DNA from: an uncultured virus (IMG/VR IMGVR_UViG_3300025018_002258)
Lineage: Duplodnaviria; Heunggongvirae; Uroviricota; Caudoviricetes
Virus record (IMG/VR): IMGVR_UViG_3300025018_002258
Reading direction: 5' to 3' (one strand)
Length of the DNA stretch: 20,000 bases
Shown here in pieces: positions 2-17,860 of the stretch; position 1 is the first letter of the stretch; the number at the start of each line of letters is the position of its first letter. Position numbers and translations under genes: made by a program. The notes under the pieces are model-generated. The model was not told the origin of the DNA. It saw only the letters and a list, made by a program, of their open reading frames with translations, and did not search any database.

Positions 2-970
2 GAAACGGCGCGGTCGTTGTACACTTACTTCAATGACCCTGAGAATCGTACTGTCATCAACAACATGTTGGCGTCAGGAGTTAAGGTTCAAAGCGTGAAT
101 CGCAAAGGCACGGCTTTGAAGGGTTTGACCTTCGTTTTTACAGGTACTTTGGACAAGATGGACCGCAAGGCTGCTCAGGATTTGGTTGTTCAGTATGGTG
201 GTAAGTCCTCTGGTAGTGTCTCGGCCAAGGTTGATTATGTGGTCGCTGGTCCTGGCGCTGGCAGCAAACTGAAAAAAGCTCAGGGCTTGGGAGTCAAGGT
301 TATCACGGAAGATGATTTCATTGATATGCTCGGAGAAGATGAAGAAATCGAAGAGGCTGACGAATACACCGCTTTTGGAGAGGTTTTGCCTTGCTCGGTG
401 CCTGATAACGTGAAGTTCATCGAAGGCGACCTGTTGGGAAGCGATGCTCAGTTCATTGCGCATCAATGCAATTGCGTCAGCAGCACGGCCGCTCATTTGG
501 CCCGCGCTATTTTCGAGAGCTTCCCTTATTCTGACATTTACTCACCTCGGGCTGCTGTTGATAAGGAAGACCGGCCTATCGCGGGCGAAGAACCGGGTCG
601 TATTGTCATCAAAGGCAATGGAGACGATGAACGGTACGTGATCAATATCATGGGACAACTTTTCCCAGGTATGAAGCATCCCGACGGCAGCAAGGATGGT
701 AATAAGGCCCGTGAGGGTTTTTTCAAGGAAGCTCTCAGTCGTATCGTGCAAATCCCCAATCTGAAAAGTATCGCTTTTCCTTGGTGCATTGGTTGTGGTG
801 CTGCCGGTGGTGATTGGGACAAGTATTTAGAGATGTTGATGGACTTTGCAACAGAGGTCGAAGACACTGAAGTCATCATCATCAAATTGAAGCCGAAACA
901 AGCTGGGCTCACAGCCCTTGCGTTGGCAGCAGGCCAACGAAAGCCTGCCACAAATGCAGAATTGGAGTGA
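2..970 (+). CDS. ligA: 3' part of NAD-dependent DNA ligase (last HhH segment + BRCT) fused to a C-terminal macrodomain; 5'-truncated by the window edge
   Basis: Frame is open from position 2 (ETARSLYTYFNDPENR). LigA BRCT signature LKGLTFVFTGTLDKMDR...GGKSSGSVSAKVDYVVAGPGAGSKLKKAQGLGVKVITEDDF, then an acidic linker, then macrodomain motifs IEGDLL...IAHQCNC...SIAFPWCIGCGAAGGDW. Confidence 0.88.
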   Translation, partial: ETARSLYTYFNDPENRTVINNMLASGVKVQSVNRKGTALKGLTFVFTGTLDKMDRKAAQDLVVQYGGKSSGSVSAKVDYVVAGPGAGSKLKKAQGLGVKVITEDDFIDMLGEDEEIEEADEYTAFGEVLPCSVPDNVKFIEGDLLGSDAQFIAHQCNCVSSTAAHLARAIFESFPYSDIYSPRAAVDKEDRPIAGEEPGRIVIKGNGDDERYVINIMGQLFPGMKHPDGSKDGNKAREGFFKEALSRIVQIPNLKSIAFPWCIGCGAAGGDWDKYLEMLMDFATEVEDTEVIIIKLKPKQAGLTALALAAGQRKPATNAELE

Positions 971-3206: not shown

Positions 3207-3235
3207 CGCTCGGGAGGCCCCCGAGGGTTGTGAAC
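3181..3235 (+). pseudogene. 5' fragment of a cyclic-phosphate-processing receiver-like gene, interrupted by the TnpB element
   Basis: GAGGA RBS at 3171-3175, then MGIKIWLDDAREAPEG, matching the family's N-terminal K(I/L)(W/F)LDDxRxxPxG motif; the frame runs into the element. Confidence 0.7.
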
Positions 3236-3346
3236 AGTTGCCATAAATTTTATAGAAATCTCATGATTCTTATGCAAATCAAGATTCTGAAAAATAGATT
3301 CCTACAGAATAAAGGAATCTTGGACTAAACCCGAGAACTAACAGCC

Positions 3347-4492
3347 ATGATCAAGGTCGAAAGACATTTCTGTAAAGGCAATCCCGAAATCATCAGGCTT
3401 TGCCATCTCTCTAAAGAACTCTACAATAAATGTAACTTCTTCATGAGAGACAACTTTTCCAAAGGAATTAGAACCCCCGATATTTCTACCTTGATCAACC
3501 TTGTCAAAGATGAGGATTGTTTCAAGAACCTGCACAATACTAAGACAGCAAAACAAACAATCAGACAATGCTTGTCGGACTGGACCAACTTCTTCAGATC
3601 TATGACTGCTTACAAAAAGAGTCCAGAAAAATTTATCAGATTCCCCAAACCACCGAAATACAAGAAAGAAATGGCACAAGTCATTTTTTACAACGAAACA
3701 ATCAGGAGAAAACCACTCAAGCAAGGAATCATTCAACCAACCAATGACTGTTTCCAGATCAAATCAGATAAACCGTTTAAACAAGTAATTATAACTCCCA
3801 AGTCCTTTGGATTTGTGATAGAAGTAAGATATGAAATCCCAGATGAACCAACCAAACCAAGAGCTAAAGGCACTTGTTCAATCGATCTTGGTGTAAACAA
3901 CTTAGCAGCGATAACTTCAGATCAGCATGATCCAATACTGATCAATGGTCGAATCGTTAAGAGTTTCAACCAATGGTTTAACAAAAATCCTAATAAGTTC
4001 AACTCAATGAAAAGATACTGGAGACTAGAGAACTACTTCCACCATGTTTCCAAGATGATTGTTGAAAACTGCAAAGCCAACAATGTTGGTACAATTATAA
4101 TTGGAAAGAATGATGGTTGGAAGAACGAAATGAACATGGGAAAGAAGAATAATCAGACATTCCAGTATATACCATTTTGCAGATTGATTCAGAAGATTCA
4201 GTATAAGGCAGAGATGGTCGGGATCAAGGTTATTTTCACAGAGGAAAGTTATACGAGCAAGGCGTCCTTCATTGATGGAGACCCATTAGATGGGTCAAAG
4301 ATTAGTGGAAAGAGGATTAATCGAGGTTTGTATAAGAGTAAAGAAGGGAAATTGATCAATGCAGATGTCAATGGATCGTTGAATATTTGCAAAAAAGTAA
4401 TCCCAAAGATTGAAGAAGATCGATGGGGCAGGAGCGTTGCCGCAACGCCCGTGGCAGTGAACCCGCTAAGCTGGTTCACTGCCCAAACATAA
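3347..4492 (+). CDS. tnpB: RNA-guided endonuclease TnpB
   Basis: N-terminal LCHLSKELYN; RuvC-I SIDLGVNN, RuvC-II region EESYTSKAS, RuvC-III INADVNGSLNI; lacks the CxxC zinc finger. Confidence 0.93.
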   Translation: MIKVERHFCKGNPEIIRLCHLSKELYNKCNFFMRDNFSKGIRTPDISTLINLVKDEDCFKNLHNTKTAKQTIRQCLSDWTNFFRSMTAYKKSPEKFIRFPKPPKYKKEMAQVIFYNETIRRKPLKQGIIQPTNDCFQIKSDKPFKQVIITPKSFGFVIEVRYEIPDEPTKPRAKGTCSIDLGVNNLAAITSDQHDPILINGRIVKSFNQWFNKNPNKFNSMKRYWRLENYFHHVSKMIVENCKANNVGTIIIGKNDGWKNEMNMGKKNNQTFQYIPFCRLIQKIQYKAEMVGIKVIFTEESYTSKASFIDGDPLDGSKISGKRINRGLYKSKEGKLINADVNGSLNICKKVIPKIEEDRWGRSVAATPVAVNPLSWFTAQT

Positions 4493-4525
4493 GGAATCTT
4501 CAGATTTATGTAGATTTTTATGAAC
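4420..4525 (+). ncRNA. Putative TnpB omegaRNA (reRNA) scaffold overlapping the tnpB 3' end; 5' boundary approximate
   Basis: Hairpins GCGTTG-ccg-CAACGC (4434-4448) and an 11-bp GGCAGTGAACC/GGTTCACTGCC (4453-4483) just inside the right end, where omegaRNAs are known to lie. Confidence 0.55.
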
Positions 4526-4725
4526 GGTATGATGTCCTATTGGCTTTGGAGCAGGCTGTTGTTGAAAACAAACTGACAAAGATCCCAGAAGTAAGGATCC
4601 ACACAACAAATGGTGCAGCCAGAAAAAGAATGGAACAAGCTCTCGAAAGTATACAATTAAAAGTCGAAGAATATAGAATAGAAGAGGAAAATCAAGAGAA
4701 TAATGGCAAGGAAAGATCTGACTGA
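4526..4725 (+). pseudogene. 3' fragment of the interrupted receiver-like gene
   Basis: YDVLLALEQAV...PEVRIHTTNGAARKRMEQAL resembles the family's C-terminal GYDVxxW...H(S/T)xNxxxRxxM motif; no start of its own. Confidence 0.7.
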
Positions 4726-6212: not shown

Positions 6213-6294
6213 CGTCAGGCTGGAGCGCTATATGGGCTGTTTAGCATCCTTGGCGATCCTTATCTAATAGCAAAGATCGAAGAGGCTTTTATTG

Positions 6295-7026
6295 ATGAAT
6301 GGCAAGGATGAATTCCTGCTAGATGGTTGCGACGAACAAAAGAAGAATAGCGTCCACGCAGTCATTTCAGCATATCGATCACTTTTGACTCCTATTTCGT
6401 ATGTCAGCATGCCGATAACGACTGGTAAGCTATATTACGAGGTCCTTGACAAAATGGGTTCTGTTTTGACTAAAGATCAGGTCTATGATCAGATCATTCG
6501 ACCGAACGGAGAGCGCGGATTGGACTTCGCGCAGTCCATTGAGGGGCTGCCGACGTTCCCTGTCGTGGCTCCAGCGATTTTTGAAGCCAAACAGATGCGA
6601 TGGACCGAAAGAGAATACATGTATCTCTGGTATCGCATTCTGGAAGAAAAAGCTCGCGAAATCTGGATGAGTCCGGGCTGGCAGTACAGCAACGGCTGCT
6701 CGGAAGAATTCACAAGAGCAATGAAGATTCAGTGGGATTTTGTGAGGTTGGATCCCACGACAGAAGATGAGCCATTGCCTATCCGGGCCTATGATGCTCT
6801 AGGCAATGAGCTGAACATCTACGATGGCACAAAGTTGGTGTTTGAAGCGATAGTAGATCTGAAAGATCGTGGGCACGATTGTCCAAAACTAATAGAGTGC
6901 TTACATGAATTGGTCAACTATGCTGGGGTTTATTATACCTACGGCAAAGACCAGGGGTGGGTCTGTCCGCATGAGGTTGACTACGAACAAATGGCCGCTT
7001 GGTCGGAACAAATTCGGTCTCTTTAG
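6295..7026 (+). CDS. DUF4406-like (nucleoside deoxyribosyltransferase-fold) protein
   Basis: YVSMPITTG...MSPGWQYSNGCSEE pattern; GAGG upstream; ends in TAG. Confidence 0.6.
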   Translation: MNGKDEFLLDGCDEQKKNSVHAVISAYRSLLTPISYVSMPITTGKLYYEVLDKMGSVLTKDQVYDQIIRPNGERGLDFAQSIEGLPTFPVVAPAIFEAKQMRWTEREYMYLWYRILEEKAREIWMSPGWQYSNGCSEEFTRAMKIQWDFVRLDPTTEDEPLPIRAYDALGNELNIYDGTKLVFEAIVDLKDRGHDCPKLIECLHELVNYAGVYYTYGKDQGWVCPHEVDYEQMAAWSEQIRSL

Positions 7027-7140
7027 GTCGGATAAGGGATTGAGATCCACGTTGTCACAATCAAACTTAACTGAAATCGGTAGACTATATGATGTCAGTG
7101 CAAATACCATAAAAAATGGGCAAAATATTACGGACGATAA

Positions 7141-8142
7141 ATGGATTACATAGGCTCGAAAATCAAGCTGAATGAATGGATTTTTGGAACCATCGAAAGC
7201 ATCGTTGATGAAAATGATGATCCGTTTCTGGATGCCTGTTGTGGCTCTGGCGCGGTAAGTCGCTATGCAGCAAATGAATGTTATGAGGTCATCGCCAATG
7301 ACATCATGAAGTTTGCCAGCGTCATTGCCAATGGAAGCATCGGAGTTTCAGACCCGATGCTTGTTGAAGCACGAGACCATATTCGGGCCATCGACGCCCT
7401 TGACCCCATTGAAGGGTTCTTTTTTCACAACTTCTGCGACGAATCAGACTCTCCCAGGCTCTATTTCACAGCAGCAAATGCTGGAAAGATAGACGCAGCC
7501 AGAGCTTATCTCGAATATATCCCTCCAGGAAAGCTGAAAGACTATTTGCTTTACTGCGGGATAGAAGCCCTGAGCCGCGTTTCCAACACGACAGGTGTAC
7601 AATCTGCTTTCCTGAAGAAGTTTAAAACCCGCGCTCTAAATGACTTCAGATTTAGGCTTGAAGATGTGATTCGGGGACATATATCAGGGGCTTTCAATGA
7701 AGATGTCTTGACACTTCTCACGGACCACGATCTCAAATATGACATTCTCTATCTAGATCCCCCATACAATCATCGTCAATATGGACCAAACTATCATCTT
7801 TATGAGACTTTTGTCAGGAATGACGATCCGGCAGTGAACGGATCAACAGGGCTAAGAAGTTGGCAGGAAGAATCAAAAAGTGATTTCTGTTCCAAGAAGG
7901 CTTGTTTGGAGTTTCTGAAGCAAGTGATTGGGGCCTCGACCGCCAAATGGAACTTTATTTCTTACAACTCAGACGGCATTATGACGAAAGAAGACGTGAT
8001 GGGAACCTTTGAGGGTTGTCAATGTTTCGAACAGCTCTATCGGCGCTATCGATCTGATGTTAGTGAGACAAGACAGTATAACGAAAGCGACTTGGTTGAA
8101 TACCTCTTCGCGATTCCAGGAAAAATTCCTGGAATCGCTTGA
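7141..8142 (+). CDS. D12-class DNA adenine methyltransferase (orphan)
   Basis: MDYIGSK, FLDACCGSGAVS, ANDI, YLDPPYN motifs. Confidence 0.92.
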   Translation: MDYIGSKIKLNEWIFGTIESIVDENDDPFLDACCGSGAVSRYAANECYEVIANDIMKFASVIANGSIGVSDPMLVEARDHIRAIDALDPIEGFFFHNFCDESDSPRLYFTAANAGKIDAARAYLEYIPPGKLKDYLLYCGIEALSRVSNTTGVQSAFLKKFKTRALNDFRFRLEDVIRGHISGAFNEDVLTLLTDHDLKYDILYLDPPYNHRQYGPNYHLYETFVRNDDPAVNGSTGLRSWQEESKSDFCSKKACLEFLKQVIGASTAKWNFISYNSDGIMTKEDVMGTFEGCQCFEQLYRRYRSDVSETRQYNESDLVEYLFAIPGKIPGIA

Positions 8143-8167
8143 CAGTTGGGGCGATTCGCGATATAAT
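8139..8167 (+). promoter_or_regulatory. Consensus sigma70 promoter of the Pth2-like operon, immediately preceded by a 13-bp inverted repeat (8110-8138)
   Basis: TTGACA 8139-8144, 17 nt, TATAAT 8162-8167. Confidence 0.85.
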
Positions 8168-8190
8168 TGGGGCTATAACGGAGGAAGAAC

Positions 8191-8541
8191 ATGTTGGACA
8201 GATTGTAGGACTCGAAACACTTCTTTGTTGTTGTTCGCACAGACATTCCCATAGAACAGCAACTCGTTCAAGCCATTCATGCCGCCCATGAATCCGGCAT
8301 TCACCTCTCCCCGTCGAGCGACAAGACGAATTCCGTCGTTGTCTGCGCCGTCAAATCGGAACAACAGCTTCTCAACGCTCAGGACAGAGTGGAAGCGAAT
8401 GGTATCCGAACCATTTTGTTCCGAGAACCAGATATCGGCAACGAGGCAACCGCCTTTGCAACCGAACCTATTCCAAGCGATCAACGGCACATGTTAAAAA
8501 ATCTCCAGCTTTGGAAGATGAAGGAGTTGTTGCCATGTTGA
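8191..8541 (+). CDS. Pth2-superfamily peptidyl-tRNA hydrolase-like protein with an in-frame TAG at codon 6 (readthrough required; 116 aa)
   Basis: GGAGGA 8180-8185, ATG 8191, TAG 8206-8208, then open: DSKHFFVVVRTDIPIEQQLVQAIHAAHESG...VVVCAVKSEQQLL...LFREPDIGNEATAFATEP...LQLW. Matches the Pth2 pattern (VVRxD...QxxHA...V...T(A/C)xx.P...L.L). No ATG/GTG/TTG between the TAG and the first motif. Confidence 0.8.
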
Positions 8542-8618
8542 ACGTTTTTCTTTAGGGTGGTCGTGCTCCTCCCCATTTGGCATTCTCGGATCCCCATTTG
8601 GGGCTGACATTTTGCTAA
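8535..8618 (+). CDS. Putative leader/arrest peptide MLNVFL*GGRAPPHLAFSDPHLGLTFC, with amber at codon 7 followed by a RAPP motif
   Basis: AAGGAG 8521-8526; ATG 8535 overlaps the Pth2-like gene end; TAG 8553-8555; CGT GCT CCT CCC (RAPP) 8562-8573; TAA 8616-8618. Confidence 0.6.
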
Positions 8619-8635
8619 ACAAGTAGGAGAAAAAG

Positions 8636-8983
8636 ATGGAAACCGTTAGAGAAATTCTGGACATTCTGACCGAGTGCATCAAGGAAGCTTCTGAACATCA
8701 GAAGAAAGCCAAGTGGTTGCGCCGAACCGTACATTTGCATCCAAAGCATGATGAGTGGATGGAAGAGTTGGCTGAAGTGCCGTATCGTTACGATGTCGGC
8801 ACTCGCGCCAAGTACATCTCGGCTTTGCTGGCTTTTCACCATGAAATCCGTGGTCAGAGATTTGATGGCCACGATTCTTGGAGACATGATGCCTTCCCGC
8901 ATGTCTTCAAGATGGTCTTGGATCAGTTGAGAGAAGAATTTTCCGAAACTCTCGCTCTTGTCTATGCTGATCTAGCAGCCTAA
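8636..8983 (+). CDS. Hypothetical helical protein downstream of the RAPP leader
   Basis: AGGAG RBS 8625-8629; 115-aa ORF. Confidence 0.8.
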   Translation: METVREILDILTECIKEASEHQKKAKWLRRTVHLHPKHDEWMEELAEVPYRYDVGTRAKYISALLAFHHEIRGQRFDGHDSWRHDAFPHVFKMVLDQLREEFSETLALVYADLAA

Positions 8984-8990
8984 ATCAGCC

Positions 8991-9016
8991 TGGGGAGTGG
9001 GGCAACTCACTCCCCA
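8991..9016 (+). terminator. GC-rich hairpin with GCAA tetraloop closing the Pth2-like operon (terminator or RNA-stabilising element; no U-tract)
   Basis: TGGGGAGTGGG-GCAA-CTCACTCCCCA. Confidence 0.5.
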
Positions 9017-9028
9017 ATGGAGATCACA

Positions 9029-9781
9029 ATGGAATACCAAGAAATGAAGGAAAGATTGACAAAAGCCCTAGAGGGTATGGATGTAACTGATCTGGAGAAA
9101 TTCAAAAGAGAAATATGTATAGAGCTTACAAATAGAAGAAGAATCTGGACTGATATTTTGAAAGAAAAATATGAAACTGAGGGATACTACGATTTTCGTA
9201 GTTCGATAGATTGGAAAGACGCAGATCAGAGAAACAAACTCTATGAAAAAGAGAAGGCAGCCAAGAAAGCAGCAGAAACAGCAGTAAGAGAAATCATTAG
9301 AGATTTCACCGATGTGGCATGTCAGGGAGTTTTAACGGGTGGTTCTGCTCGTTGGTGGTGGAGCAAACTGGACGATCCTGAACGACAAAATAAACCAACA
9401 GAGATCAGCGATGAAGCTAAATCGCTTTCTGGTATAATGCTAAATCATTCTTTCTGGTGGCCAAACAAAGGAAGATATTTGGATTATATCGACGTAAGAG
9501 AACATGTTGCCGCTGTCCTCCATGCAGTTAGCAATGCTGAGGATATTGTCTTAAGGGATGACAGAACGATTGAAGAAGAAATATCAATGGGTGTTTCGTC
9601 CGCTGCTGTTTATGATGGTTTCAGACGTTTCTATATGTATCGTGAGAACTTAGAGAAGGAACTATTGGACGATCATCACTGTGGTGATTGTATCAAAGTG
9701 GCTTGTAGTTGTTCTCGTTGCATTATCGACGATGCTCGGGGTTCCGCCGAGGAATTCATGAGAGAGGCAGGCTGGCTCTGA
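9029..9781 (+). CDS. Hypothetical protein with C-terminal His/Cys cluster
   Basis: GGAG before ATG 9029 (alternative start 9017); HHCGDCIKVACSCSRC. Confidence 0.75.
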   Translation: MEYQEMKERLTKALEGMDVTDLEKFKREICIELTNRRRIWTDILKEKYETEGYYDFRSSIDWKDADQRNKLYEKEKAAKKAAETAVREIIRDFTDVACQGVLTGGSARWWWSKLDDPERQNKPTEISDEAKSLSGIMLNHSFWWPNKGRYLDYIDVREHVAAVLHAVSNAEDIVLRDDRTIEEEISMGVSSAAVYDGFRRFYMYRENLEKELLDDHHCGDCIKVACSCSRCIIDDARGSAEEFMREAGWL

Positions 9782-9788
9782 AAGAATC

Positions 9789-9821
9789 ATGCTCCTTGGC
9801 TGTTCCTTAGCCAAGGAGCAT
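9789..9821 (+). promoter_or_regulatory. RBS-sequestering hairpin
   Basis: Perfect 13-bp stem ATGCTCCTTGGCT/AGCCAAGGAGCAT that contains the AAGGAG for ATG 9826. Confidence 0.65.
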
Positions 9822-9825
9822 CGAA

Positions 9826-10215
9826 ATGCGAGACTACTATAAAACGCAGCCGCCGCCTGGACTGACAGAGGTTCGACGCGAAATCTGGAGCCTTCAACTT
9901 GCCATTGATCGCCTCGGAGATGAGATTAAAGAAAAACAGCAGCAGGTTCAAGAACTGGAACGAAAGAAAGAAGCTGTTTTTGCCGACTGCAAGCATGATT
10001 GGGAAGAGAAATATACTCCTGTCCATTACGAGGGGTACAGAGTCCCCAGCGACCGCGAAATGGGGCTTGAACTTGGTGTTGACTCTAGGCCAGCAACTTA
10101 TGTTTCGGCCACGACTGAGAAGAAATGGACTCGAACCTGCAAAAAGTGTGGCAAGCAAGAAGTGACTTCCCGGACCCGAGAGGTCAAGCAGGAATTGCCA
10201 AGCTGGAATTCGTGA
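9826..10215 (+). CDS. Hypothetical coiled-coil + zinc-ribbon protein
   Basis: AAGGAG RBS; CKHDW...RTCKKCG. Confidence 0.8.
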   Translation: MRDYYKTQPPPGLTEVRREIWSLQLAIDRLGDEIKEKQQQVQELERKKEAVFADCKHDWEEKYTPVHYEGYRVPSDREMGLELGVDSRPATYVSATTEKKWTRTCKKCGKQEVTSRTREVKQELPSWNS

Positions 10216-12625: not shown

Positions 12626-12696
12626 CGCGGAGTGGAGCAGTCTGGTAGCTCGATGTCATATCCGGTAGGTCTCAAGTTCAAATCTTGCCTCCGCTA
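12626..12696 (+). pseudogene. Degenerate initiator-like tRNA-Met(CAT)
   Basis: CGCGGAGTGGAGCAGTCTGGTAGCTCG...TCATA...AGGTC...GTTCAAATC...CTCCGCTA resembles tRNA-fMet; the 5' strand of the anticodon stem is about 3 nt short and unpaired. Confidence 0.75.
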
Positions 12697-14121: not shown

Positions 14122-14236
14122 AGGAAACATCCAGTGGCTTCATAAAGATGTCAATTGGATGAAAGGCAGATTCAATACGAGTGAATTGATTAGGATATGT
14201 TGCATGATAGCAGACACAGTTGGGAGCGCTGAATGA
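14114..14236 (+). pseudogene. C-terminal remnant of an HNH-like homing endonuclease
   Basis: VIKGNIQWLHKDVNWMKGRFNTSELIRIC resembles the GY.KGN(I/V)QW.HKD.N.MK tail. Confidence 0.6.
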
Positions 14237-15075
14237 TATTGGAAGCTTGTGTGGCCGATTGTTACGGCGTGGGCTTCGAGTACGCTCCGAAAGAGTTTGT
14301 TGAGAAATACAATACTCTCAAGGGATACGTCGCTCATCCTGGCTATCATAGTATCATACCTGGACATTACAGTGATGATACTCAAATGTCGCTCGCCATT
14401 GTTGAACTGATCGTTGATGAAGTCGAATGGACCACCGAGAACATTGCAGCCAAATTCGTCGAAGTTTACAAACGAGATCCCATTGATGGATATGCTCAGG
14501 GCTTCAAGGGTTTGCTCGACGAAGTTTCCAGCGGGACAGAACTATTGGAGAGGCTAGATCCCGATAGTGACAAAAGCGGCGCTGCAATGCGAGCATGGCC
14601 AATCGGTGTTTTCAAAGAAATTCCAGAGGTTCTCCAGCGAGCAGCCGTCCAGGCGCGAATAACACACAATTCCATAAACGGTGTTCGTGCGGCCTTGGTT
14701 TCTGCCCTAACTACGCACTATTTCATCTATAAAATAGGCCCAAAGGCCGAATTATTCTCTTGGCTCCAGAAATACATCAAGGCAGATTGGCTCAAGCCCT
14801 ATCGGAAGAAAGTGAATTCTAAGGGATGGATGAGCATGAGTGCGGCCTTGACAGCTTTGACGGAGTGTGATACAATGACTTCGTTGCTGGAGAGGTGCAT
14901 CGCTTTCACCGGAGACGTAGACACCGTGGCGACGATAGCTCTAGCGGCAGGATCGTGCTCAGAAGAGATTGAGCAGGACTTGCCAGCATTCTTCAAGCAA
15001 GACTTGCAAAATGGGCCATATGGAAAAGATTACATAATGGCTCTGGACAAACGACTGAGGGCCTTTCAGGGCTGA
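14233..15075 (+). CDS. ADP-ribosylglycohydrolase (DraG/ARH family)
   Basis: DCYGVGFE, YSDDTQMS, SGAAMRAWPIG, THNS, GDVDTVATIA motifs. Confidence 0.92.
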   Translation: MILEACVADCYGVGFEYAPKEFVEKYNTLKGYVAHPGYHSIIPGHYSDDTQMSLAIVELIVDEVEWTTENIAAKFVEVYKRDPIDGYAQGFKGLLDEVSSGTELLERLDPDSDKSGAAMRAWPIGVFKEIPEVLQRAAVQARITHNSINGVRAALVSALTTHYFIYKIGPKAELFSWLQKYIKADWLKPYRKKVNSKGWMSMSAALTALTECDTMTSLLERCIAFTGDVDTVATIALAAGSCSEEIEQDLPAFFKQDLQNGPYGKDYIMALDKRLRAFQG

Positions 15076-17488: not shown

Positions 17489-17560
17489 AGGCAGTGTCAG
17501 GGAAGGAAAAGGGCCGAAGATAGTTCGGTTCCTCAAATTCCTGATATAATTGACAAACAT

Positions 17561-17643
17561 GGCGTCGTATGCAAACGGTTAAAGCGACTTGATTTTCATT
17601 CAAGTGCCATTGGGCTTTGCGGGTTCGAATCCTGTCGGCGCTA
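17561..17643 (+). tRNA. tRNA-Glu(TTC) with an unusually long variable region
   Basis: Acceptor GGCGTCG/CGGCGCT; anticodon arm CTTGA-TTTTCAT-TCAAG; T arm GCGGG-TTCGAAT-CCTGT; no encoded CCA. Confidence 0.8.
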
Positions 17644-17646
17644 TTA

Positions 17647-17768: not shown

Positions 17769-17850
17769 GCCGGGAATGCTCGATTGGCAGGAGCGCAAGT
17801 ATCATAAACTTGTTCATTAAGACGTGTGGGTTCGAGTCCCGCTCCCGGTA
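17769..17850 (+). tRNA. tRNA with CAT anticodon (Met or Ile2), atypical
   Basis: Acceptor GCCGGGA/TCCCGGT; D stem GCTC/GAGC; anticodon arm CAAGT-ATCATAA-ACTTG; T arm GTGGG-TTCGAGT-CCCGC; 13-nt variable region. Confidence 0.75.
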
Positions 17851-17860
17851 CTTTGGAGAC

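What the first reader, a model, noticed from the sequence alone, without database searches (positions are those of the whole stretch)
8180..8541. Hidden peptidyl-tRNA-hydrolase-like gene with a stop at codon 6
Seen: absent from the ORF track because TAG 8206-8208 separates the GGAGGA/ATG from an otherwise intact 110-codon frame, with no alternative start before the VVVRTD motif. Promoter, SD and domain all look intact, unlike the decayed fragments elsewhere in the window. Known: very short minigenes (e.g. lambda bar) promote peptidyl-tRNA drop-off that requires Pth. Inference: MLDRL* could itself generate or sense the enzyme's substrate, giving feedback control. The motif variant (QQLVQAIHA...REPD) differs from canonical Pth2 (GKxAAQxxHA...DAGxT), so activity is unproven.
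Basis: partly seen in the sequence, partly recalled or inferred. Interest (0 to 1): 0.8.

Follow-up and report, generated by a model that had tools for sequence, protein, structure and literature searches.

The report
Amber-gated phage tRNA hydrolase gene
The stop codon near the start of this small phage gene is not damage: it is kept in many large phages beside a phage tRNA that reads that stop, so the enzyme is probably made only when the tRNA works.

Summary
ATG 8191, four codons, TAG 8206-8208, then 110 open codons that fold as a Pth2-type peptidyl-tRNA hydrolase (pLDDT 89.5; TM 0.72-0.79 to solved Pth2). It is not a fresh pseudogene.

I examined 160 related loci, which fall into 118 clusters at 90% identity. 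In 57 clusters there is no ordinary start codon between the nearest upstream in-frame stop and the domain. 55 of these have an in-frame ATG at most 12 codons upstream of the stop. That stop is TAG in 51, TAA in 3 and TGA in 1.

A suppressor tRNA lies in the fetched locus in 91 of 118 clusters, on the same strand in 90 of 91. Its anticodon follows the stop type: TAG with CUA, TAA with UUA, TGA with UCA.

Four whole phage genomes carrying the gene use TAG as an ordinary stop. Cultured jumbo phages (ME3, BF, GAP32, RsoM2USA) show the same arrangement, and the gene is truncated or missing in their annotation.

Best reading: suppressor-tRNA-dependent read-through gates synthesis of a divergent Pth2-like enzyme. 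The window's own variant lacks the tRNA that a 96% identical sister contig carries 1.07 kb upstream. I found no paper describing this arrangement.

The parts
8139..8167 (+). sigma-70-type promoter-like site, TTGACA-17 nt-TATAAT
   Evidence: 12 of 12 consensus matches; the same sequence is kept in sister contig L112 (printout)
8180..8185 (+). Shine-Dalgarno-like GGAGGA, 5 nt before the ATG
   Evidence: read directly
8191..8205 (+). five-codon leader ATG TTG GAC AGA TTG (MLDRL)
   Evidence: L112 has two synonymous changes and no amino-acid change in the leader.
8206..8208 (+). in-frame amber codon TAG followed by G; the proposed read-through (gating) site
   Evidence: Conserved in relatives. No variant is listed at this place in four other runs.
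8209..8541 (+). 110-codon Pth2-fold domain plus TGA stop
   Evidence: Pfam PF01981. A profile of the family matches solved Pth2 chains. AlphaFold2 model pLDDT 89.5. The best Foldseek matches are Pth2 structures, TM 0.72-0.79. dN/dS against L112 is 0.156.
7037..7131 (+). 95 nt with no counterpart in the sister contig. It stands where L112 carries 2.8 kb holding two ORFs and the tRNA(CUA).
   Evidence: The window-type junction is bridged by contigs of runs X3 and X4, and a second form that joins 7037 to 7132 occurs in X3.
7132..7136 (+). GGACG, identical to the last 5 nt of the tRNA(CUA) of L112. It marks the breakpoint just before the methyltransferase ATG at 7141.

Best explanation
The gene encodes a divergent Pth2-fold tRNA-ester hydrolase. 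Its synthesis is gated by a programmed in-frame amber codon. Ribosomes start at ATG 8191 and meet TAG after five codons. They make the enzyme only if an amber-suppressor tRNA (anticodon CUA) reads that TAG; otherwise they release a pentapeptide. In this phage family the suppressor is phage-encoded and usually sits on the same strand within a few hundred bases of the gene, so the two genes form a module.

Shown here: the conserved layout, the linkage to the tRNA, the match between stop type and anticodon, the standard genetic code of four whole genomes carrying the gene, the Pth2 fold, and purifying selection on the frame after the TAG.

Inferred: that the tRNA is charged and actually reads the leader stop, and what the enzyme does. 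My best guess for its role is that it deals with tRNA esters produced by suppression. It could clear peptidyl-tRNA from ribosomes that read through stops, or it could limit the pool of charged suppressor. Either way, gating matches enzyme supply to suppressor activity.

In the window's own variant the neighbouring tRNA is absent. Here the gene is silent unless a suppressor lies elsewhere in the genome.
For: 1. Conserved layout. 160 loci (80 kept of 160 confirmed viral hits; 80 kept of 421 confirmed metagenome hits) form 118 clusters at 90% identity. One search judged 112 of them; six with stops inside the domain or an odd layout were set aside. In 57 there is no ATG, GTG or TTG between the nearest upstream in-frame stop and the domain, and 55 of these 57 have an in-frame ATG at most 12 codons upstream. 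By stop type this is TAG 51 of 51, TAA 3 of 3 and TGA 1 of 3.

2. Linkage to a suppressor tRNA. A suppressor tRNA lies in the fetched locus in 91 of 118 clusters. It is on the same strand in 90 of 91 and within 500 bp in 65 of 91. It is the tRNA nearest the gene in 85 of 101 clusters with any tRNA, and in 25 of 29 loci with five or more tRNAs.

3. Stop type follows anticodon, in the strict set of 55 clusters. TAG goes with CUA in 43, UUA in 1 and none in 7. TAA goes with UUA in 1 and none in 2. TGA goes with UCA in 1.

4. This is not genome-wide recoding. In four whole phage contigs, TAG ends 163 of 471, 37 of 160, 28 of 146 and 24 of 266 open frames of 150 aa or more, and the frames stay open only briefly after the TAG, as after TAA and TGA. 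In one of these contigs (G002) the only tRNA is the CUA tRNA, 729 bp upstream of the gene. In the complete 395 kb genome, only two genes fit the pattern ATG-short leader-TAG with a ribosome-binding site, and one is this gene.

5. Sequence context. The base after the stop is A in 46, G in 20, C in 5 and T in 0 of 71 clusters, while T makes up 19% of first codon positions in these genes.

6. Selection and age. dN/dS is 0.156 for the post-TAG frame against L112, compared with 0.134 for the neighbouring methyltransferase. The window sits in a clade of 23 clusters, all interrupted, with 97% support. The interrupted state needs 12 changes on the tree, against 33.6 for shuffled labels.

7. Cultured phages. 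Acinetobacter phage ME3 has MT*IHE with a CUA tRNA about 430 bp upstream. Serratia phage BF has MTH*ND with a CUA tRNA 3.3 kb downstream. GAP32 has MAQ*NE with a suppressor tRNA 3.1 kb downstream. RsoM2USA has ML*IS with a CUA tRNA 13 kb away.

8. Fold.
Against: - The window has no tRNA(CUA). ARAGORN finds four tRNAs (Glu, Met and two Ser), and Rfam adds one degenerate initiator-like element.
- One complete phage genome (G008, 360 kb, with terminal repeats) has the TAG-interrupted gene but no canonical CUA tRNA among 48 ARAGORN tRNAs. Seven further tRNA-like hits found only by Rfam could not be typed.
- 7 of the 51 strict TAG clusters show no suppressor in the fetched locus. For one of these, a CUA tRNA lies 5.7 kb away.
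- There is no direct evidence of read-through: no proteomic or RNA data.
- The codon after the stop is ATT in 32 of 71 clusters. That would also fit re-initiation at a near-cognate start.
- The suppressor tRNAs are heterogeneous: 73 of 97 have G1:C72, and base 73 is A in 48, U in 26, G in 20 and C in 3. Their amino-acid identity and their charging in the host are unknown.
- The residue aligned with the canonical Pth2 loop lysine is Gln, so hydrolase activity is unproven.
Confidence: 0.72

Rival explanations
1. Recent nonsense pseudogene: a chance TAG killed a once-normal gene.
For: In this window the gene has no suppressor tRNA nearby, and gene callers skip it.
Against: The same layout occurs in 55 clusters down to about 30% identity. 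The sister contig keeps the TAG and has synonymous changes in the leader. dN/dS is 0.156. The stop is TAG in 51 of the 55 strict cases, even in AT-rich genomes where TAA is the usual stop (215 TAA against 24 TAG in G008).
Confidence: 0.03
2. The phage reads TAG as an amino acid throughout its genome (a code-15-type reassignment), so the TAG here is just a sense codon.
For: Some distant relatives do carry TAG inside the domain (L037, L049, L054 and L061; also L153 and L161). These loci fit recoded phages. Only part of the window's genome is visible.
Against: Four whole genomes carrying the gene use TAG as a normal stop. In the 20 kb window, reading TAG as Gln does not join ORFs into longer genes other than this one in any convincing way, and the gene at 6292-7026 ends in TAG. 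Sense-codon use would not explain why TAG is fixed at one N-terminal position while the surrounding leader residues vary.
Confidence: 0.08
3. The tiny ATG-x-TAG frame is a coupling uORF. Ribosomes terminate at the TAG and re-initiate at the next codon, often ATT, so no suppressor is needed.
For: The codon after the stop is ATT in 32 of 71 clusters. It is a canonical or near-cognate start in 39 of 71.
Against: In the window the next codons are GAC TCG AAA CAC TTC TTT GTT GTT GTT, none of them a start or near-cognate start. The second commonest following codon, GTA (9 of 71), is not a start. This idea does not explain the restriction to TAG, the adjacent CUA tRNA, or the TAA-UUA and TGA-UCA pairings.
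Confidence: 0.07
4. One reading: the short leader acts like a lambda bar minigene, producing peptidyl-tRNA drop-off that the enzyme senses or clears, which gives feedback.
For: Leaders are very short, two codons in 38 of 71 clusters. From general knowledge (recalled, not from a call), two- to few-codon minigenes promote drop-off.
Against: There is no route from drop-off to translation of the downstream frame. The model does not predict TAG specificity or the linked suppressor tRNA. I could not test it with these tools.
Confidence: 0.07

Closest known systems
Pth2 peptidyl-tRNA hydrolases of archaea and eukaryotes (Pfam PF01981; solved structures 2zv3, 3erj, 1wn2, 1q7s, 1xty). Their presence in jumbo phages was noted by Iyer et al. 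2021 (PMC7824862; passages read).
   Same: The alpha/beta fold is the same (TM 0.72-0.79). A profile of the family matches solved Pth2 sequences at E 2.9e-7. The R-x-D-L strand, the Q..HA helix motif and an acidic residue at the DAG aspartate position are shared.
   Different: The GKGK loop is two residues shorter, and Gln stands where the loop lysine aligns. An invariant F-R-E-P-D motif replaces R-D-A-G. The gene carries an N-terminal in-frame stop and is linked to a suppressor tRNA. Neither feature appears in the passages of that paper that hold 'PTH2' or 'peptidyl-tRNA hydrolase', and the word 'suppressor' does not occur in its main text.
Stop-codon-recoded phages that use suppressor tRNAs (TAG read as Gln, code 15). 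Passages read in PMC10879173 and PMC11210395. Borges et al. 2022 is recalled only and was not held.
   Same: A phage-encoded tRNA(CUA) allows translation of phage genes that contain in-frame TAG.
   Different: Here four whole genomes otherwise use TAG as an ordinary stop. The in-frame TAG is confined to one conserved position at the start of one small gene next to the tRNA, not spread over late genes.
prfB (release factor 2) autoregulation through an early in-frame stop codon (established knowledge, recalled)
   Same: An early in-frame stop in a translation-related gene makes the gene's own synthesis depend on how the cell treats that stop.
   Different: prfB needs a +1 frameshift, and its product acts directly on the stop. 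Here the frame is unchanged, decoding is by a tRNA, and whether the product acts on the suppression pathway is unknown.
Orphan amber suppressor tRNAs of standard-code jumbo phages, for example Xanthomonas phage XacN1 (PMC5852040; passages read)
   Same: These are large phages with the standard code that carry tRNA(CUA). XacN1 also has a homologue of this gene.
   Different: The XacN1 authors could not find any gene targeted by the suppressors. In relatives such as ME3, BF, GAP32 and RsoM2USA, the TAG-interrupted Pth2-like gene is an obvious candidate target. XacN1's own copy is uninterrupted and fused to a longer N-terminal part.

Membership tests
Pth2 peptidyl-tRNA hydrolase (PF01981) | Sequence match to the family model above its curated cut-off | tested here: met
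   23.4 bits against a cut-off of 23 (marginal); a profile of the family matches seven solved Pth2 sequences, the best at E 2.9e-7.
Pth2 peptidyl-tRNA hydrolase (PF01981) | Pth2 alpha/beta fold | tested here: met
   pLDDT 89.5, pTM 0.83; of the 14 matches at E <= 0.001, 13 are Pth2 chains and one (2gax) is a protein of unknown function; TM 0.72-0.79 for the best.
Pth2 peptidyl-tRNA hydrolase (PF01981) | Lysine of the G-K-G-K loop after strand 1 (its catalytic role is recalled from work on Sulfolobus Pth2, not from a call) | tested here: not met
   alignment: the loop is two residues shorter, and Gln (Q17 of the post-TAG protein) aligns with the lysine.
Pth2 peptidyl-tRNA hydrolase (PF01981) | Acidic residue of the D-A-G motif | tested here: inconclusive
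   E73 of the invariant F-R-E-P-D aligns with the Asp. D75 is also invariant. This is a conservative change of unknown effect.
Pth2 peptidyl-tRNA hydrolase (PF01981) | Hydrolysis of peptidyl-tRNA | not testable with these tools
   Needs an enzyme assay.
Suppressor-tRNA-dependent phage genes (recoded-phage type) | In-frame stop inside a conserved, selected reading frame | tested here: met
Suppressor-tRNA-dependent phage genes (recoded-phage type) | A matching suppressor tRNA encoded by the same phage | tested here: inconclusive
   Met in the sister contig L112 and in 91 of 118 clusters. Not met within the 20 kb window. The rest of the genome could not be fetched.
Suppressor-tRNA-dependent phage genes (recoded-phage type) | Genome-wide reassignment of the stop codon | tested here: not met
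   four whole genomes carrying the gene use TAG as a normal stop. The window shows no general TAG read-through.
Minigene of the lambda bar type | Stand-alone ORF of two to a few codons whose expression depletes tRNA when Pth is limiting | not testable with these tools
   The leader is short (5 codons here; 2 codons in 38 of 71 clusters). However, it is followed in frame by a conserved gene. Toxicity cannot be tested here.

The most novel reading that the evidence does not exclude
The suppressor tRNA and the stop-gated Pth2-like enzyme form a self-contained two-gene control loop in phages that otherwise use the standard code. The enzyme is made in proportion to suppressor activity. It then acts back on the suppression pathway, either by deacylating or recycling the suppressor tRNA or by clearing the peptidyl-tRNA that read-through creates. 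This would set how much UAG read-through the infected cell experiences. If true, it would give the long-unexplained 'orphan' suppressor tRNAs of jumbo phages both a dedicated target gene and a built-in governor.
Probability: 0.3. Interest if true: 0.9.

Novelty: new variant of a known kind. Interest (0 to 1): 0.85.

Why it matters
Large phages with the standard genetic code often carry amber-suppressor tRNAs, and nobody has found a target gene for them. The XacN1 paper says so explicitly (PMC5852040). This finding points to a concrete, conserved target: a small Pth2-like gene beside the tRNA whose only route to expression is read-through of an N-terminal stop.

The gene has been missed or truncated in the annotation of well-known cultured jumbo phages. 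The idea can therefore be tested directly with a reporter and with mass spectrometry.

It also offers a natural, compact 'suppression sensor', and a possible regulator of stop-codon read-through during infection.

Tried and rejected
- The whole genome of the window is not held. The records behind L111 and L112 are not searchable. I therefore could not look for a tRNA(CUA) beyond the window.
- An exact 48-base search of viral contigs found nothing. A distant blastn of 7000-10000 against cultured phages found nothing.
- phmmer of the single protein against solved structures found nothing. Only the family profile did.
- A crude comparison of ORF coverage under alternative codes did not discriminate between codes. 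I replaced it with the test of how far frames stay open after each stop type.
- I tried to infer the amino-acid identity of the suppressor tRNAs by blastn against other phage tRNAs. It gave only short T-arm matches and no answer. Acceptor-stem statistics show the tRNAs are heterogeneous.
- An Rfam scan of 20 loci, looking for a ribozyme between the tRNA and the gene, gave only tRNA hits at gathering score.
- PHROGs gave two families of unknown function.
- Earlier findings of this scan held nothing on this sequence, and only one unrelated note on a crAss-like suppressor tRNA.
- No RNA holder was listed among the sequencing runs, so I make no statement on expression.
- Borges et al. 2022 on stop-codon recoding is not held. 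I cannot say whether it or its supplements mention this gene.
- My first, loose 'interrupted' class wrongly included ordinary genes with their own ATG (L146, L152, L178). The strict counts are the ones to use.

Full report
**1. The observation**

GGAGGA lies at 8180-8185. ATG 8191 is followed by TTG GAC AGA TTG, then TAG 8206-8208. After the TAG come 110 open codons to TGA 8539-8541. No ATG, GTG or TTG lies in frame between the TAG and the first beta strand (FFVVVRTD); the next one is 60 codons downstream.

A full-consensus promoter-like site lies just upstream: TTGACA, 17 nt, TATAAT at 8139-8167, 12 of 12 matches.

The window looks like part of a large phage. It has many small same-strand genes, four tRNA genes, a TnpB-type gene, a D12 adenine methyltransferase, a BRCT-macro protein, an ADP-ribosylglycohydrolase, an HNH protein and a metallophosphoesterase.

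**2. What the frame encodes**

The post-TAG protein matches Pfam PTH2 at the cut-off: 23.4 bits against 23, E 7.4e-5. The single sequence found no solved structure. A profile of 17 relatives matched seven solved Pth2 sequences, the best being 2zv3 at E 2.9e-7.

An AlphaFold2 model built on a 66-sequence alignment is confident (pLDDT 89.5, pTM 0.83). Of its 14 Foldseek matches at E <= 0.001, 13 are Pth2 chains and one (2gax) is a protein of unknown function. The best have TM 0.72-0.79 (2zv3, 3erj, 1wn2, 1q7s, 1xty).

The active site is altered. In the profile alignment the G-K-G-K loop is two residues shorter, and Gln aligns with the loop lysine. The invariant motif F-R-E-P-D replaces R-D-A-G, with E73 on the aspartate position. 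The catalytic role of that lysine and aspartate is recalled from work on Sulfolobus Pth2 and comes from no call.

A profile search of 1.84 billion representative proteins found 2794 at E <= 1e-10, so the family is large. PHROGs lists it as of unknown function.

**3. The stop is conserved**

I fetched 80 viral loci (the best of 160 confirmed hits) and 80 metagenome loci (the best of 421). All 160 hold the motif. They form 118 clusters at 90% identity.

One search judged 112 clusters; six with stops inside the domain or an odd layout were set aside. In 57 there is no ordinary start codon between the nearest upstream in-frame stop and the domain. 55 of these 57 have an in-frame ATG at most 12 codons upstream of that stop. 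By stop type this is TAG 51 of 51, TAA 3 of 3 and TGA 1 of 3.

My earlier, looser rule counted 71 clusters. It wrongly included a few ordinary genes with their own ATG (L146, L152, L178).

The leaders are tiny, ATG plus one codon in 38 of 71 clusters.

On a tree built without the leader columns, the interrupted state needs 12 changes, against 33.6 for shuffled labels (0 of 500 shuffles as low). The window lies in a clade of 23 clusters, all interrupted, with 97% support and long branches.

A sister contig from the same collection (L112, 96% identical in this region) keeps the TAG. It has two synonymous changes and no amino-acid change in the leader. dN/dS for the post-TAG frame is 0.156, like the neighbouring methyltransferase at 0.134.

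Contigs from four other groundwater or aquifer runs cover the TAG, and no difference is listed there.

Taken together, a recent pseudogene is excluded.

**4. A suppressor tRNA travels with the gene**

ARAGORN finds a tRNA with anticodon CTA in most loci. It labels this tRNA 'Pyl' from the anticodon alone.

- By cluster, 91 of 118 have a suppressor tRNA in the fetched DNA.
- 90 of these 91 are on the strand of the gene.
- 65 of 91 lie within 500 bp and 85 of 91 within 1500 bp.
- 43 are upstream (median 82 bp) and 48 downstream (median 370 bp).

This is not just the effect of sitting in a tRNA cluster. The nearest tRNA is a suppressor in 85 of 101 clusters with any tRNA, and in 25 of 29 loci with five or more tRNAs. 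Suppressors make up only 95 of the 465 tRNAs seen.

The stop type follows the anticodon. In the strict set of 55 clusters:

| Leader stop | CUA | UUA | UCA | none found |
|---|---|---|---|---|
| TAG | 43 | 1 | 0 | 7 |
| TAA | 0 | 1 | 0 | 2 |
| TGA | 0 | 0 | 1 | 0 |

The single TAA-UUA case is L137, whose only tRNA ends 80 nt before the stop. The single TGA-UCA case is L160. A UUA anticodon can also read UAG by wobble (general knowledge).

Relatives without the leader stop are also linked to a CUA tRNA: 29 of the 43 clusters classed 'continuous'. The tie between protein and tRNA therefore goes deeper than the gating.

**5. These phages use the standard code**

I rebuilt four whole contigs carrying the gene. 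TAG ends 163 of 471, 37 of 160, 28 of 146 and 24 of 266 open frames of 150 aa or more. After the TAG the frames stay open only briefly, as after TAA and TGA.

In the complete 395 kb genome (G005), only two genes fit the pattern 'ATG, short leader, TAG, long frame with no other start, ribosome-binding site', and one is this gene. TAA and TGA give one and three such cases, so there is no excess.

In G002 (183 kb) the only tRNA is the CUA tRNA, 729 bp upstream of the gene.

A few distant relatives do carry TAG inside the domain (L037, L049, L054 and L061, L153, L161). These probably come from truly recoded phages.

**6. Context**

The base after the stop is A in 46, G in 20, C in 5 and T in 0 of 71 clusters, although T is 19% of first codon positions in these genes. 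From memory of the E. coli literature on amber suppression, a purine after UAG favours suppressor tRNA over release factor.

The next codon is ATT in 32 of 71 clusters. This keeps a re-initiation model alive for some members, but not for the window, where the following codons are GAC TCG AAA CAC and so on.

The suppressor tRNAs are heterogeneous. 73 of 97 have G1:C72, and base 73 is A in 48, U in 26, G in 20 and C in 3. 18 of the 19 phage tRNA-Gln in the same data have U1:A72 or A1:U72. The inserted amino acid is unknown and may differ between phages. That would be tolerable in a variable leader.

**7. Cultured phages**

A tblastn search of 50,697 phage records found 46 with a homologue.

| Phage | Leader and stop | Suppressor tRNA | GenBank annotation of the gene |
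|---|---|---|---|
| Acinetobacter phage ME3 | MT*IHE | CUA tRNA about 430 bp upstream | starts inside strand 1 |
| Serratia phage BF | MTH*ND | CUA tRNA 3.3 kb downstream | none |
| Cronobacter phage GAP32 | MAQ*NE | 'Sup-tRNA' 3.1 kb downstream | truncated |
| Ralstonia phage RsoM2USA | ML*IS | CUA tRNA 13 kb away, same strand | none |

XacN1, RaK2 and mycobacteriophage Cane17 have uninterrupted copies, and Cane17 has a CUA tRNA 250 bp downstream.

The XacN1 paper states that no target of its CUA suppressors could be found (PMC5852040; passages read). Iyer et al. 2021 note Pth2 in jumbo phages and suggest ribosome rescue. The passages I read that hold 'PTH2' mention no leader stop, and the word 'suppressor' does not occur in the main text (PMC7824862).

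Eight full-text searches found no paper describing a stop-interrupted Pth2-like gene beside a suppressor tRNA. Borges et al. 2022 is not held, so I cannot vouch for it or its supplements.

**8. The window's own variant**

L111 is the window's own DNA (99.99% identity over 17,780 nt). L112 is the sister contig. It carries the tRNA(CUA) at 6951-7025, 5 nt before the methyltransferase ATG and 1.07 kb upstream of the gene.

The window lacks L112:4188-7020, a 2.8 kb stretch holding a 412-aa ORF, a 548-aa ORF and the tRNA. In its place the window has 95 unrelated bases (7037-7131). Similarity resumes at GGACG, the last five bases of the tRNA.

The tRNA-less junction is real. Contigs of runs X3 and X4 bridge it. 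In X3 a second form that joins 7037 to 7132 coexists at similar depth, 9.8 against 11.2.

Neither ARAGORN nor Rfam finds a CUA tRNA anywhere in the 20 kb window. I could not fetch the rest of the genome. In the closest viral relative (L001) the CUA tRNA lies about 7 kb from the gene, so a distant copy is possible here too.

**9. Counter-examples**

G008 is a complete 360 kb genome with the interrupted gene. It has no canonical CUA tRNA among 48 ARAGORN tRNAs. Seven odd tRNA-like hits found only by Rfam could not be typed, and one contains UUUUCUAAA in a possible nine-base loop, which is speculative.

Seven of the 51 strict TAG clusters show no suppressor in the DNA fetched.

**10. Verdict**

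The gene is an intact member of a large, divergent Pth2-fold family of big phages, and its early stop is a conserved device.

The best-supported mechanism is read-through by a phage suppressor tRNA, which ties enzyme synthesis to suppressor activity (confidence about 0.7). What the enzyme does is inferred, not shown.

The arrangement is a new variant of suppressor-dependent phage gene expression. It gives the orphan suppressor tRNAs of standard-code jumbo phages a testable target.

Noticed in passing
window 12626-12696 (+): A tRNA-like element (Rfam tRNA, 32.1 bits) that ARAGORN misses. Its acceptor, D and T arms resemble a bacterial initiator tRNA (a C1-U72 mismatch and a CAU in the anticodon region), but the anticodon arm is about three bases short. 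A TATAAT-like box lies just upstream. It sits inside the block shared with L112.
   Followed up: partly
window 17560-17644 and 17769-17851 (+): tRNA-Glu(UUC) and tRNA-Met(CAU) are 85 and 83 nt long, with 10-12 extra bases in the variable region (Rfam alignments). This is unusual for these isotypes.
   Followed up: no
window 3230-4528: A TnpB/IS605 OrfB-type gene (3347-4492; Pfam OrfB_IS605 plus the Cas12f1-like TNB domain) lies in a segment absent from the sister contig L112. This looks like a recent mobile-element insertion.
   Followed up: partly
L112:4055-6940: The cassette that carries the tRNA(CUA) in the sister contig also holds a 412-aa ORF and a 548-aa ORF. The window keeps only the first ~44 codons of the 412-aa ORF (window 6905-7153). 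The function of the cassette was not examined.
   Followed up: no
L011:3925-4300, L120:8732-9083, L123:14303-14648: Phage-encoded tmRNA genes lie close to the suppressor tRNA and the Pth2-like gene in several relatives. This fits a group of genes that deal with stalled or read-through ribosomes.
   Followed up: no
G008 (contig of L040), for example 165405-165493, 164972-165051 and 169734-169822: Seven tRNA-like hits found by Rfam but not by ARAGORN. Some have what looks like an anticodon arm in the place of the D arm, plus a long extra arm. One holds UUUUCUAAA. Their nature is unknown.
   Followed up: partly
window 2-970 and 14233-15075: The C-terminal part of a protein with BRCT and macro domains (its start lies beyond the window), and a separate ADP-ribosylglycohydrolase. 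These suggest that the phage handles ADP-ribose marks.
   Followed up: no
L007:5267-5341; L020:3654-3726; L043:2512-2584 and related loci: ARAGORN reports tRNA-like genes with four-base or two-base anticodons (aaac, ggaa, gc) a few hundred bases to 2 kb downstream of the Pth2-like gene in several relatives.
   Followed up: no
GenBank records KY630187 (BF), MG752970 (RsoM2USA), JN882285 (GAP32), KU935715 (ME3): The Pth2-like gene is unannotated in BF and RsoM2USA. In GAP32 and ME3 it is annotated from a start inside the domain. The cause is the leader TAG.
   Followed up: yes
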